DNA of 64,000 bases from the IMG/VR virus record IMGVR_UViG_3300028874_000010, positions 32,001 through 96,000 of that record; one strand, given 5' to 3'. Positions 3,705 to 64,000 of the stretch are shown piece after piece. Source of the DNA: a virus. The position numbers and the translations under genes are program-made. Below the pieces are notes generated by a model. The model searched no databases. It had not been told where the DNA came from and saw nothing but the letters and a program-made list of their open reading frames with translations. The stretch's first letter is position 1; each line of letters opens with the position of its first letter.

Positions 3705-4256
3705 TTATGTTTCTATTTTAAACTGAATTAATCCTGCTTGGTACGCCGAACTTTTATAAGTATTTACCTGATGTTCTGGCATATCGGGTCCAACACCTTG
3801 AGCGATAACAGTATGCCAATAATCATGATGCAATCCTACATATCCTAATGCTTCTATTAGATATGTCAGATTAGGGTTTTTAGTTTGACCCATAGTGATA
3901 ATCAAACTGATTGGTAGATTTAAAATAGGAGTTTTAGTTACTCCATCGTGCGTATAGGCAAAACCATTTACTAAGATTTTTTGCATGAATGCCACTAATG
4001 GATATGGCGGCATTTCACACCATAATGGAAATGAAAAACAGATTGCATCACACTCAAGAATGTGCTCTTTGTATGCCTCAATCAGCATTTCATTTCTATC
4101 ATTGCTTTGAGTATAACCGGTATGAAAATGATTCTCAAATAAATCTAACTTACCAATATCATGCCCTGCATCTTTAACACCTTGGATAAATTGATTGGTA
4201 AGTTCCGCGCCGAATCCGCTCTTATTGGGATTTGCAGTAATAACAAGGCTCTTCAT
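3705..4256 (-). CDS. Flavodoxin-fold NAD(P)H-dependent oxidoreductase (Flavodoxin_2 family)
   Basis: ANPNKSGF, DLF, FPLW..P..L..F, GFAY and TMG motifs. Confidence 0.75.
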   Translation of the reverse strand: MKSLVITANPNKSGFGAELTNQFIQGVKDAGHDIGKLDLFENHFHTGYTQSNDRNEMLIEAYKEHILECDAICFSFPLWCEMPPYPLVAFMQKILVNGFAYTHDGVTKTPILNLPISLIITMGQTKNPNLTYLIEALGYVGLHHDYWHTVIAQGVGPDMPEHQVNTYKSSAYQAGLIQFKIET

Positions 4257-61648: not shown

Positions 61649-62206
61649 TTATCCTTTTATTAAATTCAAAAGTTGTCGACCACGTTTATCAATATGCTTA
61701 AATTTGATCTTAAAGGATGTCGATTCTATCCCGCCAAACATAGCAGCGTTGGAATGAATCTCACACAATCCAGTGATCATCAACGAGATAGCTTCAGGAC
61801 GTCGCGAGAACTCTTCCAGGGCCTCTGCCTTGAGAAGATGAATATCCATATCCATTCTAATCAGGCGCCCTATAGCGGCGTTCCTGGGGTTCTGGACGGT
61901 ATGTAAAGTCCATTGATCGTATGAGGCTTCTGCATGATTTGGAAAGCGTTGTTTTCCATCAGCATCTATCGTAACACAAATCGGTTTCCCTGAATCGTGA
62001 AAGGTGTGGTAGTCACGCATAATATCCAATTCAAATAAATTAGCTTTGATGAATTCTTTGTTAGCGATTAACCAATCTGGTAATCTCCATTCATACGATA
62101 ATGGTTGATCATCAAAAAGATAGTTATGAAGATCAAGATAATAATTATGAACTGATTGACCATGTTCCAAGATCGATTGACCTTTAGATTGGAAACATGT
62201 CTTCAT
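61649..62206 (-). CDS. HD-domain protein
   Basis: EHG..V, HD.GKP, F..HA..S and MFGG..STSFKIK motifs. Confidence 0.75.
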   Translation of the reverse strand: MKTCFQSKGQSILEHGQSVHNYYLDLHNYLFDDQPLSYEWRLPDWLIANKEFIKANLFELDIMRDYHTFHDSGKPICVTIDADGKQRFPNHAEASYDQWTLHTVQNPRNAAIGRLIRMDMDIHLLKAEALEEFSRRPEAISLMITGLCEIHSNAAMFGGIESTSFKIKFKHIDKRGRQLLNLIKG

Positions 62207-62233: not shown

Positions 62234-62632
62234 TCATGACATGATACTCTCCAATTCGATTTTAAGTTTAGCAATAGCCTCTTCTTTATATGTCACGTTC
62301 TTCTTTGCATCTTCAAGTTCAAATTCATACTTCGTAATTTGTTTCTCCACACCCCATATTTTTACAGCTTTGATAGGGTCTTCAGATCTGATAAGCTTCA
62401 TTGGGATTCTGTATGAACTAGAATTAGAACAGCCTCTGGCTGACCAACTAGTTTCAATGTGTAATATGTCATGATCTATTTCTAGAGATTCTATCTGGTC
62501 ATTCATGAGACCACCATAGCCTGCAGCTTCCACAAGTTCAGAAAGTTTGCGTTGGCACTCGTTGATATCGGGGTTTTTGTATTTGCTGATATCAAATGAT
62601 GCTTGTTCTATAAGTTCGATGATGGTAGTCAT
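62234..62632 (-). CDS. Hypothetical protein with C-terminal coiled coil
   Basis: GAGGTG RBS. Confidence 0.6.
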   Translation of the reverse strand: MTTIIELIEQASFDISKYKNPDINECQRKLSELVEAAGYGGLMNDQIESLEIDHDILHIETSWSARGCSNSSSYRIPMKLIRSEDPIKAVKIWGVEKQITKYEFELEDAKKNVTYKEEAIAKLKIELESIMS

Positions 62633-62641
62633 TTATTCACC

Positions 62642-62938
62642 TCAGTAGGATAAAAGTTTATTGGTGTATTTCTTGGTAAGCTTAATTAAAACATCGCCAT
62701 GGCAACGGGATGGTGAGCACCAACACCCAAGAGTTTTGCCTAGCAATTCCGGCAAACTACTTAAAAGTTCTGGCATCATTTCAATATATTCTTCATACAT
62801 CGAAATGACTTCTTCTCTGGTACCATCTATTCCAATAACGAATGGATTAGCCTACTTAGAGGCAGGAAGATTGTGATGGTCATTCTTCCTACCTATGTAG
62901 ACATCATATGGATGTTTAAGGCAATGAACTACTTTCAT
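62642..62938 (-). pseudogene. DUF4326-family gene interrupted by an in-frame TAG
   Basis: MKVVHCLK.PYDVYIGR...SK*ANPF...L.GKTLGCWCSP..CHGDVL; TAG at 62852-62854 replaces the usual Trp of SKW(G/A)NPF. Confidence 0.8.
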
Positions 62939-63260
62939 AGGTTGGTTTATAAAGGTTATACTTAGTCATGATTCTTCGTGTCTTCATATCTTTGATAGGC
63001 ATTGTCGCAATTGCAGAATGTCCCATATCAAAATCCGGTTCTTTGAACATTGTATACTTGATGTCATACCGTTCAAGCCGTTGTGCAATCTCATGGAGTT
63101 CAGCTTTGTTTTTAGCTGGCAACATAATGATGCTAGAGATCGGATCATCAGAACCATGAAGAGTTTTTCCGGCTTCTAGCGCGGCATGAGAAAGCTGAAC
63201 CATTTGCTGAGCGAGAGAAAGATCGGTTCGGATGAACACATAAGTGTATGGGTGATCCAT
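62916..63260 (-). CDS. Peptidyl-tRNA hydrolase type 2 (Pth2)-like protein
   Basis: YVFIRTDLS..Q..VQ.SHAA and F.EPD...G.SAIA..P motifs; GGAGG RBS. Confidence 0.7.
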   Translation of the reverse strand: MDHPYTYVFIRTDLSLAQQMVQLSHAALEAGKTLHGSDDPISSIIMLPAKNKAELHEIAQRLERYDIKYTMFKEPDFDMGHSAIATMPIKDMKTRRIMTKYNLYKPTYESSSLP

Positions 63261-63262
63261 GA

Positions 63263-63613
63263 TTATGCACCTCCAAGCTTGGTCAGATCATGATGGAGAC
63301 TATCAAGGATCAATAGGAATCGGGTCCATTGCTCTGGTGTCAATTCAAGCCCATATGTCCAAGTATTGGATTTCTGTTTAGTCCAATAGATCAGACCTCG
63401 GAGTGCAGCATCATACGCGTTAAACGGAGGAGTTTTGTGCTTGCAAGGAGAGAATGCTTTGGTAGCTTTAGCCTTAATATCAGGCACAGCCGAAGCAAAG
63501 ATTGCGTGAGTGAGATAATCAGCAGAGTCAAATGTATGTTTGTCTGCGTGCGATTTTTTCCAGGCAGCGATGAAAGATTCGTGCTGGGTCTTGCTAAGAA
63601 TAAAGTCGAACAT
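63263..63613 (-). CDS. Hypothetical protein, first gene of the Pth2-like operon
   Basis: AAAGGA RBS before MFDFIL. Confidence 0.65.
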   Translation of the reverse strand: MFDFILSKTQHESFIAAWKKSHADKHTFDSADYLTHAIFASAVPDIKAKATKAFSPCKHKTPPFNAYDAALRGLIYWTKQKSNTWTYGLELTPEQWTRFLLILDSLHHDLTKLGGA

Positions 63614-63619
63614 GATATT

Positions 63620-63770
63620 TCCTTTGAATGTATTTTGTGGGTACTGTGAATAATTGCTATTCTGGATGTAGCCACACATTCAAGGAGATTGGGATTTAAC
63701 TCATAACATGATAGTATTTCCTTTTAAAATAATTACTGGTGAAATGGCACCAGTACCAAAAGTATTTATA
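63620..63770 (-). promoter_or_regulatory. Late promoter plus ATG-TTA-TGA minigene leader with anti-Shine-Dalgarno helix
   Basis: TATAAATA 63763-63770; AAGGAAA RBS; ATG TTA TGA (63701-63709) GTT AAA TCC CAA TCT CCT TGA; TCCTTGAATGT is complementary to ACATTCAAAGGA covering the downstream RBS. Confidence 0.65.
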
Positions 63771-64000
63771 AGCGTTTTAGATCATTAATACAAATCCCAA
63801 ACGCTGTACCTATGAACCAATTGTATAACACTTCATCATCGCCATACAACTTTTTTTTCTTGAAATTTATCACAAGTTCTTCTTTCAAGTTTGGATCCGA
63901 TTTAAGATTCATAACTATTGGTTTATCCCAAGACAACATTTGGATTGTCTTGGACCATAGCGAATCAATCAAATCTTGATAAGTACCAACACACATTATT
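63766..64000 (-). CDS. Hypothetical protein, 5' end probably outside the window
   Basis: Frame open to the window edge. Confidence 0.5.
   Translation of the reverse strand, partial: IMCVGTYQDLIDSLWSKTIQMLSWDKPIVMNLKSDPNLKEELVINFKKKKLYGDDEVLYNWFIGTAFGICINDLKRL

What the first reader, a model, noticed from the sequence alone, without database searches (positions are those of the whole stretch)
63611..63770. Stop-codon minigene leader controlling a Pth2-like operon: a possible termination or peptidyl-tRNA stress sensor
Seen: after TATAAATA and a strong AAGGAAA RBS comes ATG TTA TGA, continuing in frame GTT AAA TCC CAA TCT CCT TGA. The end of this extension (TCCTTGAATGT, then GTGG) can pair with CCAC..ACATTCAAAGGA, hiding the RBS of the gene at 63613. 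A ribosome terminating at the first UGA would barely reach the helix; one reading through to CCT-TGA would melt it. Established: two-codon minigenes (lambda bar) cause peptidyl-tRNA drop-off needing Pth, UGA is RF2-specific, and Pro-stop terminates slowly. Inference: translational attenuation that induces the Pth2-like gene when release or recycling fails. It would be a second translation-monitoring switch, sharing its promoter type with the tRNA attenuator.
Basis: partly seen in the sequence, partly recalled or inferred. Interest (0 to 1): 0.75.

Follow-up and report, generated by a model that had tools for sequence, protein, structure and literature searches.

The report
Suppressor-tRNA-gated leader of phage Pth2 operon
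A giant phage puts a two-codon mini-gene ending in UGA in front of a tRNA-hydrolase operon, and because related phages swap that stop codon together with the anticodon of their own stop-reading tRNA, it looks like a switch that turns the operon on only when that tRNA overrides the stop.

Summary
On the minus strand lie TATAAATA, a hairpin, a strong SD, ATG-TTA-TGA, six in-frame codons, a second TGA inside an anti-SD arm, and a helix that sequesters the SD of the 116-aa gene at 63613. Two other runs carry the same leader, so the TGA is not a base-calling error.

The same architecture recurs in four related IMG/VR loci upstream of the same PTH2-like operon. The first stop is TGA in two phages and TAG in three, so an RF2-specific sensor is unlikely. 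The stop matches a tRNA in each genome: UCA with TGA, CUA with TAG. In 12 GenBank jumbo or huge phages the PTH2-like (or HD–PTH2) ORF itself starts ATG + 1–2 codons + in-frame TAG. Six of the 12 have a CUA tRNA on record; the other six were not checked. RaK2 has neither.

Best reading: a translational attenuator opened by read-through from the phage's own opal-reading tRNA. All of this is computational.

I found no paper describing it. This scan has reported the suppressor-gated Pth2 design before on other DNA (45 notes, at least 40 genomes). This window adds the opal form and the uORF-plus-hairpin form.

The parts
63763..63770 (-). TATAAATA, a T4-late-type promoter motif; it contains the TAA stop of the 76-aa upstream gene (63766-63996)
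   Evidence: 14 copies on the coding (-) strand against 1 on the + strand of the 112-kb record, several followed by SD-ATG. The 14-mer TATAAATACTTTTG is shared with two other leaders. The same motif stands before the homologous leaders in L005 and L009 (CATAAATA in L008) and before the gated ORF of LR756501.
63726..63755 (-). Hairpin TACTGGTG-CCATTT-CACCAGTA followed by ATTATTTT. It looks like an intrinsic terminator for upstream transcripts and would sit at the 5' end of the late transcript.
   Evidence: L005 has a hairpin of different sequence (CTGTTG..CAACAG + AATTATTG) at the same place. L008 and L009 have none.
63717..63723 (-). Shine-Dalgarno AAGGAAA of the mini-ORF; the AAGGA core ends 9 nt before the ATG
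   Evidence: A strong SD precedes the mini-ORF in all five leaders: AGGAG, GGAG, GGAG, AAGGAGGAGG in the relatives.
63701..63709 (-). Gate mini-ORF ATG TTA TGA (Met-Leu-opal)
   Evidence: Homologous positions read ATG TTG TGA (L005), ATG ATG TAG (L008, L009) and ATG AAG TAG (L010).
63680..63700 (-). In-frame read-through extension (VKSQSP) ending at the second stop TGA 63682-63680, which lies inside the anti-SD arm and abuts ATG 63679
   Evidence: The second in-frame stop comes 6-7 codons after the first in all five leaders. It is TAA in the other four.
63672..63686 (-). Anti-SD (5') arm of the sequestering helix, TCCTTGAATGTGTGG. It begins 14 nt after the end of the first stop.
63620..63640 (-). 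3' arm of the helix (CCAC ... ACATTCAAAGGA), including the SD AAGGA (63624-63620) of the main gene
   Evidence: mean P(unpaired) of the SD is 0.28, against 0.48 with a shuffled spacer.
63263..63613 (-). First operon gene, 116 aa (P0002 family). It is a confident five-helix fold of unknown function. ATG 63679 would give a 138-aa form, and ATG 63709 a 148-aa form if both TGAs were read through.
62916..63260 (-). PTH2-like peptidyl-tRNA hydrolase gene, 114 aa
   Evidence: Pfam PF01981 scores 22.9 bits against a cut-off of 23. The AF2 model has pLDDT 74. The top Foldseek matches are archaeal Pth2 (2zv3, 3erj, 1xty) and human Bit1 (1q7s), at probability 1.0.
62234..62242 (-). Second copy of the gate motif: ..TATC ATG TCA TGA at the end of the 132-aa gene. 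It is in frame with ATG 62206 of the HD-domain gene (61649-62206), nine codons downstream.
   Evidence: L005 has ATG TTG TGA at the same place, and the 9-codon spacer is conserved as protein (VNYALLEEP against VNYEKLTGP). In XacN1 and Xoo-sp13 the HD-PTH2 fusion ORF is preceded in frame by ATG AAG (AAG) TAG.

Best explanation
The stretch is the 5' leader of a late-transcribed operon in a jumbo phage distantly related to the RaK2/GAP32 group. The operon holds a P0002-family gene, a PTH2-like hydrolase, a decayed DUF4326 remnant, a 132-aa gene and an HD-domain gene. The leader works as a translational attenuator whose input is stop-codon read-through. A strong SD loads ribosomes on a two-codon ORF, Met-Leu-UGA. 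If release occurs at that UGA, the ribosome's leading edge stops a few nucleotides short of a helix in which an anti-SD arm hides the SD of the first gene, and the operon stays poorly translated. If the UGA is decoded, most likely by the phage's own tRNA with anticodon UCA, the ribosome runs six more codons. It ends at a second stop that lies inside the anti-SD arm. This melts the helix and frees the SD and ATG 63613. It may also allow restart at the abutting ATG 63679 or, in this phage only, read-through of the second UGA into the same frame. Operon expression is thereby tied to the activity of the suppressor-type tRNA. What the data show: the sequence elements, their conservation, the co-variation of stop type with tRNA anticodon, and the PTH2 fold. 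What is inferred: that the tRNA is made, charged and suppresses; the ribosome-footprint geometry, taken from E. coli values; and the direction of regulation.
For: (1) The architecture is conserved in five loci with diverged sequence: SD, ATG-X-stop, an anti-SD arm beginning 13-18 nt later, a second in-frame stop 6-7 codons on within or next to that arm, and the main SD-ATG 86-96 nt from the mini-ATG. The helix is kept by different sequences: TCCTTGAATGT/ACATTCAAAGGA, CCTTAATGTT/AACATTAAGG, TCTTCCT/AGGAAGA. (2) Synteny is conserved. L005 carries the same five genes. In L008 and L009 the leader precedes a distant P0002-family gene upstream of the PTH2-like gene (a 123-aa gene intervenes in L009). 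In L010 it directly precedes the PTH2-like gene. (3) Stop type matches tRNA anticodon. Window phage: TGA with tRNA(UCA) at 68.4 bits. G001: TGA with two tRNA(UCA). G002: TAG with tRNA(CUA) 36 nt after the PTH2-like gene. G003: TAG with a tRNA after the PTH2-like gene that Infernal aligns with anticodon CUA in a 9-nt loop. G004: TAG with a canonical tRNA(CUA). (4) In 12 GenBank phages the PTH2-like or HD-PTH2 ORF starts ATG + 1-2 codons + in-frame TAG: ME3, GAP32, CBB, Kaldavass, BF, fHe-Yen9-04, RsoM2USA, Arash, LR756511, LR756501, XacN1 and Xoo-sp13. tRNA(CUA) is present in ME3 (annotated), in GAP32, CBB, BF and RsoM2USA and in XacN1 (PMC5852040). RaK2 has an ordinary start and no suppressor tRNA among its 8 tRNAs. 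(5) The base after the gate stop is a purine in all 17 cases seen. By established knowledge that context favours suppression over release. (6) The XacN1 authors could not find a target for their CUA tRNAs. The unannotated mini-ORF supplies one. (7) Both TGAs are confirmed in independent contigs.
Against: Nothing is experimental. Expression, charging and amino-acid identity of the tRNA(UCA) are unknown. TGA ends 46 of 183 ORFs in this record, so a strong opal suppressor should be costly. That argues for weak or timed suppression. The TGA-UCA pairing rests on two related phages, effectively one lineage, and I found no independent opal example. The five leaders represent about three lineages. Per-locus SD-sequestration statistics are modest (15, 24, 66, 16 and 2 of 200 shuffles). 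The window's translation-initiation region as a whole is not unusually structured among the phage's genes (rank 59 of 182). Here the second stop is also UGA and would be partly suppressed too. The hairpin plus U-run just after the promoter motif could terminate the late transcript itself. An earlier follow-up in this scan priced the bold self-contained-switch reading at only 20/100.
Confidence: 0.55

Rival explanations
1. One reading: a sensor of failing termination or recycling. Read-through or stalling at the mini-gene stop rises when the host release factor (RF2) or peptidyl-tRNA hydrolysis is limiting, and this induces the phage Pth2-like enzyme. The two-codon ORF acts like a lambda bar minigene.
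For: The same conserved geometry fits this model. The downstream gene has a Pth2 fold. Extension peptides end in Pro or Pro-Pro before the second stop in three of five leaders, which by established knowledge slows release. Any cause of read-through would open the helix.
Against: The stop is TAG (RF1-read) in three of five leaders and in 12 GenBank phages, so there is no RF2 specificity. The stop changes together with the phage tRNA anticodon. In the direct-gate relatives the enzyme cannot be made at all without decoding the stop, which suits a dedicated tRNA better than rare failure. The second codon varies (Leu, Met, Lys, Thr, Ser), unlike a specific tRNA-starvation minigene.
Confidence: 0.12
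2. The mini-ORF is a constitutive element. It could be a ribosome-loading or standby site, or a 5' mRNA stabiliser, that sets a fixed low translation level of a structured initiation region. The match with the tRNA anticodon would then reflect shared ancestry, not function.
For: The mini-ORF lies near the predicted 5' end of the late transcript. 5' hairpins follow several other late-promoter motifs in this phage. Only about three lineages support the co-variation. Start-stop elements and SD-dependent stabilisers are known in bacteria (own knowledge).
Against: This does not explain why the second in-frame stop sits on the anti-SD arm 6-7 codons on in all five leaders. It does not explain why relatives place the stop inside the PTH2-like ORF itself with no alternative start. 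It does not explain why the suppressor tRNA gene is so often next to the operon.
Confidence: 0.15
3. Direct gating in this phage. The true product is a 148-aa protein started at ATG 63709 and read through both in-frame UGAs, or a 138-aa protein restarted at ATG 63679. This would parallel the in-frame gates of RsoM2USA and XacN1, and the hairpin would be secondary.
For: The three ATGs are in one frame. JGI and Logan gene calls for the window record, P0003 and P0004 start at the MC.. ATG, with a 22-aa extension of equal length. L005 keeps that ATG in frame with a 21-codon extension and a TAATG overlap. The only SNP seen in the leader is synonymous in this frame.
Against: L009 has four stops in that frame. 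L005 and L010 mini-ORFs are out of frame with the main gene. More distant family members start at the MFDFIL-equivalent Met. ATG 63613 has its own strong, conserved SD. The conserved residues of the extension are exactly the helix arms, so RNA constraint explains them as well.
Confidence: 0.1
4. Chance or a relic: a leftover start of a deleted gene, without function.
For: An 18-nt near-repeat of the mini-ORF region occurs at the end of the 132-aa gene (E = 0.067). I first read it as a duplication relic.
Against: The element is conserved across five diverged loci and in 12 GenBank phages. The second copy is itself conserved in L005 and is in frame with the HD gene.
Confidence: 0.03

Closest known systems
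Leader-ORF translational attenuation (ermC, cat, cmlA type)
   Same: A short leader ORF has its own SD. The SD of the downstream gene is locked in a hairpin whose 5' arm lies at the end of the leader ORF. The position the ribosome reaches decides whether the helix is open.
   Different: The input here is decoding of a stop codon, not drug-induced stalling. The leader has only two sense codons before the decision point. The likely effector is a tRNA encoded by the same genome.
prfB (RF2) autoregulation through an early in-frame UGA
   Same: An early in-frame stop codon makes synthesis depend on the balance between release and an alternative decoding event. It concerns a translation-termination function.
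   Different: No +1 frameshift site is involved, and reading continues in the zero frame. The stop is TAG in most relatives. The regulated product is a Pth2-like hydrolase, not a release factor.
Stop-codon-recoded phages with suppressor tRNAs (code 4 or 15; crAss-like, Lak, Jade, Agate; Borges et al., 10.1101/2021.08.26.457843)
   Same: A phage-encoded suppressor tRNA is proposed to switch on genes that carry in-frame stops. Standard-code relatives that have acquired a suppressor tRNA are described there.
   Different: Here the genome otherwise uses the standard code: TGA ends 25% of ORFs and there is no gain from alternative codes. The stops sit at codon 3-4 of one operon's starts or in a uORF. 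In this window the stop acts through an RNA hairpin, not inside the regulated ORF.
Lambda bar minigenes (two-codon ORFs causing peptidyl-tRNA drop-off; own knowledge)
   Same: An SD followed by a two-codon ORF in a phage, with a conceptual link to peptidyl-tRNA hydrolase.
   Different: bar has AUA-UAA, and its effect is host toxicity when Pth is limiting. Here the sense codon and the stop vary, and the element is a cis-regulatory leader of the phage's own Pth2-like operon. Drop-off was not tested.
Orphan suppressor tRNAs of cultured jumbo phages (XacN1, PMC5852040; Atu_ph07, PMC6102473)
   Same: The same phage group, with the same pairing of a suppressor tRNA and peptidyl-tRNA hydrolase genes in one genome.
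   Different: Those papers found no target. The unannotated ATG-AAG-TAG in front of XacN1 ORF364 and the window's leader supply a candidate.

Membership tests
Leader-ORF translational attenuator | Short upstream ORF with its own ribosome-binding site | tested here: met
   AAGGAAA then ATG TTA TGA. Conserved in five loci.
Leader-ORF translational attenuator | SD of the regulated gene paired with a segment at or just beyond the leader ORF's end | tested here: met
   Predicted in the MFE and centroid folds. SD pairing is predicted in all five leaders, with the anti-SD arm starting 13-18 nt after stop 1. This is prediction only.
Leader-ORF translational attenuator | Signal-dependent change of ribosome position that opens the helix | not testable with these tools
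   Needs reporters or toeprinting.
Suppressor-tRNA-gated Pth2 cassette (seen earlier in this scan; no paper found) | PTH2-fold gene in the gated unit | tested here: met
Suppressor-tRNA-gated Pth2 cassette (seen earlier in this scan; no paper found) | ATG + 1-3 codons + stop at the head of the unit | tested here: met
   Here it is a uORF, not inside the PTH2-like ORF. Direct in-frame forms occur in 12 GenBank phages.
Suppressor-tRNA-gated Pth2 cassette (seen earlier in this scan; no paper found) | tRNA cognate to that stop encoded in the same genome | tested here: met
   tRNA(UCA) at record 101639-101716, Rfam tRNA 68.4 bits.
Stop-codon-recoded phage (code 4) | Many genes with in-frame TGA, and better coding under TGA = sense | tested here: not met
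   TGA ends 46 of 183 ORFs. No split genes are rescued by reading TGA as sense. Only 32% of the genome is in the record.
prfB-type frameshift autoregulation | +1 frameshift at the in-frame stop | tested here: not met
   Downstream coding continues in the zero frame.
Lambda bar-type minigene | Two-codon ORF with SD | tested here: met
Lambda bar-type minigene | Peptidyl-tRNA drop-off and toxicity in a Pth-limited host | not testable with these tools
   Needs an experiment.
PTH2 (PF01981) | Sequence profile at or above the curated cut-off | tested here: inconclusive
   22.9 bits against a cut-off of 23.0. In the profile search against the PDB the best hit is a peptidyl-tRNA hydrolase, E = 0.0075.
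PTH2 (PF01981) | Pth2 fold | tested here: met
   The Foldseek matches with E <= 0.001 are archaeal Pth2-family chains; human Bit1 follows at E 1.8e-03. TM is 0.58-0.67 and probability 1.0.
PTH2 (PF01981) | Catalytic residues | not tested
   Not examined.
T4-type late promoter | TATAAATA about 6 nt before the transcript start, on the coding strand | tested here: met
   14 on the minus strand against 1 on the plus strand. The sigma factor and the transcript start were not tested.

The most novel reading that the evidence does not exclude
The suppressor-type tRNA and the Pth2-like enzyme form a self-limiting circuit. The enzyme, and the HD hydrolase fused to it in XacN1-type phages, can be made only when the tRNA reads the gate stop. 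The enzyme in turn acts on that tRNA's peptidyl or aminoacyl form, or on the drop-off products that read-through creates. The phage thereby holds genome-wide read-through at a set level or times it to late infection. The window would then show a natural tRNA-operated RNA switch in its opal form.
Probability: 0.15. Interest if true: 0.9.

Novelty: new variant of a known kind. Interest (0 to 1): 0.78.

Why it matters
Cultured jumbo phages such as XacN1, GAP32, CBB, BF, ME3 and RsoM2USA carry suppressor tRNAs while using the standard code. The XacN1 authors looked for targets of these tRNAs and found none (PMC5852040). The mini-ORF and in-frame gates give a concrete, conserved target. They also explain why the PTH2-like gene is missing or truncated in many GenBank annotations. 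This window adds a version in which the stop acts through an SD-sequestering hairpin. That would be a natural translational switch read by a tRNA, built from very few parts and easy to test with reporters. It also links stop-codon suppression to peptidyl-tRNA hydrolysis, and it may be a step on the road to full stop-codon recoding in phages.

Tried and rejected
- Genome-wide TGA or TAG recoding in the 112-kb record: no sign of it.
- The 18-nt repeat as a duplication relic: replaced by the second-gate reading once L005 showed the same arrangement.
- An N-terminal extension as the general explanation: rejected because L009, L005 and L010 do not allow it. It is kept as a lineage-specific rival.
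- Homologues of the 116-aa gene: none in GenBank phages. Single-sequence scans of viral and metagenome contigs found nothing. Profile-based scans then found L005 and L008-L010.
- Relatives of a virus record cannot be drawn.
- No RNA holder was listed among sequencing runs, so expression remains unknown.
- No Rfam family matches the leader.
- The P0002-family model (pLDDT 86) has no significant Foldseek match in the PDB, and Pfam finds nothing.
- Atu_ph07, a published UCA suppressor phage, gave no tblastn hit with two PTH2-like queries, so there is no independent opal test.
- The GAP32 gene next to the PTH2-like gene is not a P0002 homologue.
- The whole initiation region of 63613 is not unusually structured among the phage's genes.

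Full report
**What is there.** The window is bases 32001-96000 of a 112,368-bp IMG/VR virus record. CheckV estimates 32% completeness, so the phage is of the order of 350 kb. GC content is 37%, and nearly all genes lie on the minus strand. The record comes from peat metagenomes. Its PTH2-like protein is 33-40% identical to proteins of GAP32, CBB, RaK2, BF, XacN1 and RsoM2USA, which places the phage near that jumbo-phage group.

On the minus strand, the 76-aa gene 63766-63996 ends with a TAA that lies inside TATAAATA (63770-63763). After that come:
- a hairpin TACTGGTG-CCATTT-CACCAGTA with ATTATTTT (63755-63726);
- AAGGAAA (63723-63717);
- ATG TTA TGA (63709-63701);
- GTT AAA TCC CAA TCT CCT (63700-63683);
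- TGA (63682-63680);
- ATG 63679;
- after 22 codons, AAGGA (63624-63620) and ATG 63613 of a 116-aa gene.

The segment TCCTTGAATGTGTGG (63686-63672) pairs with CCAC...ACATTCAAAGGA (63640-63620) in both the MFE and the centroid fold. Contigs from two other runs carry the same leader with a single difference, at 63647. The stops are therefore not base-calling errors. TATAAATA occurs 14 times on the coding strand and once on the other. It is often followed by SD-ATG, as T4-type late promoters are.

**Relatives.** The 116-aa protein has few homologues. Profile-driven scans of IMG/VR found four related phage contigs.

- L005 keeps the whole operon: P0002-family gene, PTH2-like, DUF4326, a 132-aa gene and an HD-domain gene. 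Its leader reads TATAAATA, a hairpin of different sequence, AGGAG, ATG TTG TGA, seven in-frame codons ending CCA CCT TAA, and an ATG overlapping that stop (TAATG). CCTTAATGTT then pairs with AACATTAAGG, which holds the SD of the main gene.
- L008 and L009 have (C/T)ATAAATA, GGAG, ATG ATG TAG, six codons, TAA, and an anti-SD that pairs with AAGGAAG of a distant P0002-family gene. The PTH2-like gene follows.
- L010 lacks the P0002 gene. It has AAGGAGGAGG, ATG AAG TAG, seven codons ending CCG CCG TAA, and a helix over the SD and start of the PTH2-like gene itself.

In all five leaders the helix arm starts 13-18 nt after the first stop, and the second in-frame stop lies in or next to it. The distance from the mini-ATG to the main ATG is 86-96 nt. 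Predicted SD accessibility is below that of shuffled-spacer controls in every case, though only modestly per locus.

**The trigger.** The first stop is TGA in two phages and TAG in three, so an RF2-specific sensor does not fit. ARAGORN and Rfam find a matching tRNA in each genome:
- Window phage: a tRNA with anticodon UCA at record position 101639-101716, scoring 68.4 bits.
- L005 phage: two UCA tRNAs.
- L008 phage: a CUA tRNA 36 nt after the PTH2-like gene.
- L010 phage: a canonical CUA tRNA about 0.9 kb upstream.
- L009 phage: a tRNA directly after the PTH2-like gene that ARAGORN calls UCU. Infernal aligns it with U33-CUA-A37 in a 9-nt loop.

I then looked at GenBank phages with a PTH2-like match. 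In ME3, GAP32, CBB, Kaldavass, BF, fHe-Yen9-04, RsoM2USA, Arash and two huge uncultured phages (LR756511, LR756501), the PTH2-like frame begins ATG, one or two sense codons, then an in-frame TAG. There is no alternative start nearby. In XacN1 and Xoo-sp13 the same motif stands in frame four codons before the annotated ATG of an HD-PTH2 fusion ORF. Many of these genes are unannotated or truncated in the records.

CUA tRNAs are present in ME3 (annotated, about 450 nt away), in GAP32, CBB, BF and RsoM2USA and in XacN1. RaK2 has a normal start and no suppressor tRNA. The tRNA sets of the other six gated phages were not checked. The base after the gate stop is a purine in all 17 cases.

The XacN1 paper states that no target of its suppressor tRNAs could be found. 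The Atu_ph07 paper reports a UCA suppressor together with Pth genes. Three literature searches found no description of the gate. Borges et al. describe suppressor tRNAs in recoded phages and in some standard-code relatives, but not this arrangement.

**Mechanism proposed.** Release at UGA-1 leaves the ribosome short of the helix. By E. coli footprint values the leading edge reaches about 9-10 nt past the stop, and the helix starts at 14 nt. Decoding of UGA-1 by the tRNA(UCA) carries the ribosome onto the anti-SD arm, where it ends at the second stop. This frees the SD of the first gene, and the operon is translated.

In this phage the second stop is also UGA, and all three ATGs share a frame. 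Restart at 63679 or double read-through may therefore add longer isoforms. Gene calls for relatives (P0003, P0004, P0012) start at that ATG with 22-aa extensions. This cannot be general, because L009 has several stops in that frame and L005 and L010 are out of frame.

The record otherwise uses the standard code. TGA ends 46 of 183 ORFs, and no split genes are rescued by reading TGA or TAG as sense. Suppression is therefore presumably weak or timed. The tRNA gene follows an extended -10-like TGTGTATAAT, while the leader follows a late-type motif.

**The operon.** The 114-aa product has the Pth2 fold. The AF2 model has pLDDT 74, and the top Foldseek matches are archaeal Pth2 and human Bit1 at probability 1.0. 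Its Pfam score is 22.9 bits against a cut-off of 23. The P0002 family gives a confident five-helix model with no match in the PDB.

A second copy of the gate motif sits at the end of the 132-aa gene: TATC ATG TCA TGA at 62242-62234. It is in frame with the HD gene nine codons on. L005 has ATG TTG TGA at the same place, and the spacer is conserved as protein. This parallels the gated HD-PTH2 fusions of XacN1 and Xoo-sp13.

**Verdict.**
- Its trigger (host RF2 or Pth stress, bar-like drop-off) is not supported.
- The phage's own suppressor-type tRNA is the better candidate, at about 55% for the full model.

The limits are these. There is no experimental evidence. There are only about three lineages of leaders and one lineage for the opal form. 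Per-locus fold statistics are modest. A UGA suppressor should also be costly in a genome with many UGA stops.

After I had reached this reading, the scan's notebook showed that the suppressor-gated Pth2 design had been reported before on other DNA, in 45 notes from at least 40 genomes. One later check priced the bold switch reading at 20/100. This window contributes the opal/UCA form and the uORF-plus-hairpin form.

Noticed in passing
window 62234-62242 (-), with 61649-62206: The 132-aa gene ends ..TATC ATG TCA TGA, an 18-nt near-copy of the leader mini-ORF. It is in frame with the HD-domain gene nine codons downstream. L005 has ATG TTG TGA there, and the spacer is conserved as protein. This may be a second read-through gate or a read-through fusion.
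   Followed up: partly
window 62642-62915 (-): The DUF4326 homologue looks decayed. It has no start codon, because its N-terminal part overlaps the extended 3' end of the PTH2-like gene. It also carries an in-frame TAG exactly where L005 has the Trp of the SKWGNPF motif (ASK*ANPF). It is either a pseudogene or another suppressed stop. No CUA tRNA was seen in this partial record.
   Followed up: partly
G000 record 101639-101716 (-), 5.6 kb beyond the window end: A tRNA with anticodon UCA (ARAGORN labels it 'SeC'). It is of ordinary size with an encoded CCA and scores 68.4 bits against Rfam tRNA. TGTGTATAAT precedes it, and another TATAAATACT motif follows it.
   Followed up: yes
window 63770, 51596, 12989 (-): The 14-mer TATAAATACTTTTG occurs three times. 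Overall, TATAAATA occurs 14 times on the minus strand and once on the plus strand.
   Followed up: partly
L009 3452-3528: The tRNA directly after the PTH2-like gene has a 9-nt anticodon loop, C-ac-U-CUA-AA. ARAGORN calls it Arg(UCU), while Infernal aligns CUA as the anticodon.
   Followed up: partly
GenBank loci L002, L003, L049-L052, L068, L069, L072, L073: The PTH2-like genes of GAP32, CBB, Kaldavass, ME3 and Arash are annotated from a downstream start. Those of RsoM2USA, BF and fHe-Yen9-04 are not annotated at all, because of the in-frame TAG at codon 3-4. LR756511 and LR756501 carry the same in-frame TAG but have no annotation at all.
   Followed up: yes
L048 (XacN1 ORF364), L071 (Xoo-sp13_327), L070 (CM1): The window's 185-aa HD-domain protein and the PTH2-like protein are fused into one ORF in these phages, which suggests the two act together.
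   Followed up: partly
window 63726-63755 (-): A terminator-like hairpin lies directly after the late-promoter motif, so it would also sit at +1 to +30 of the late transcript. Whether it stabilises that RNA, attenuates it, or only stops upstream transcripts is unexplained.
   Followed up: no
G000 record 3808-4242 (-), outside the window: ARAGORN calls a permuted tmRNA with tag ANDAYFGETRLAA. A phage tmRNA would fit a genome that also carries a suppressor tRNA and a Pth2-like enzyme.
   Followed up: no
L010 2086-2784: A GIY-YIG-like homing endonuclease gene sits between the tRNA(CUA) and the gated PTH2-like gene. A 55-aa ORF with a hydrophobic stretch (2744-2911) ends in the ATG AAG TAG mini-ORF.
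   Followed up: no
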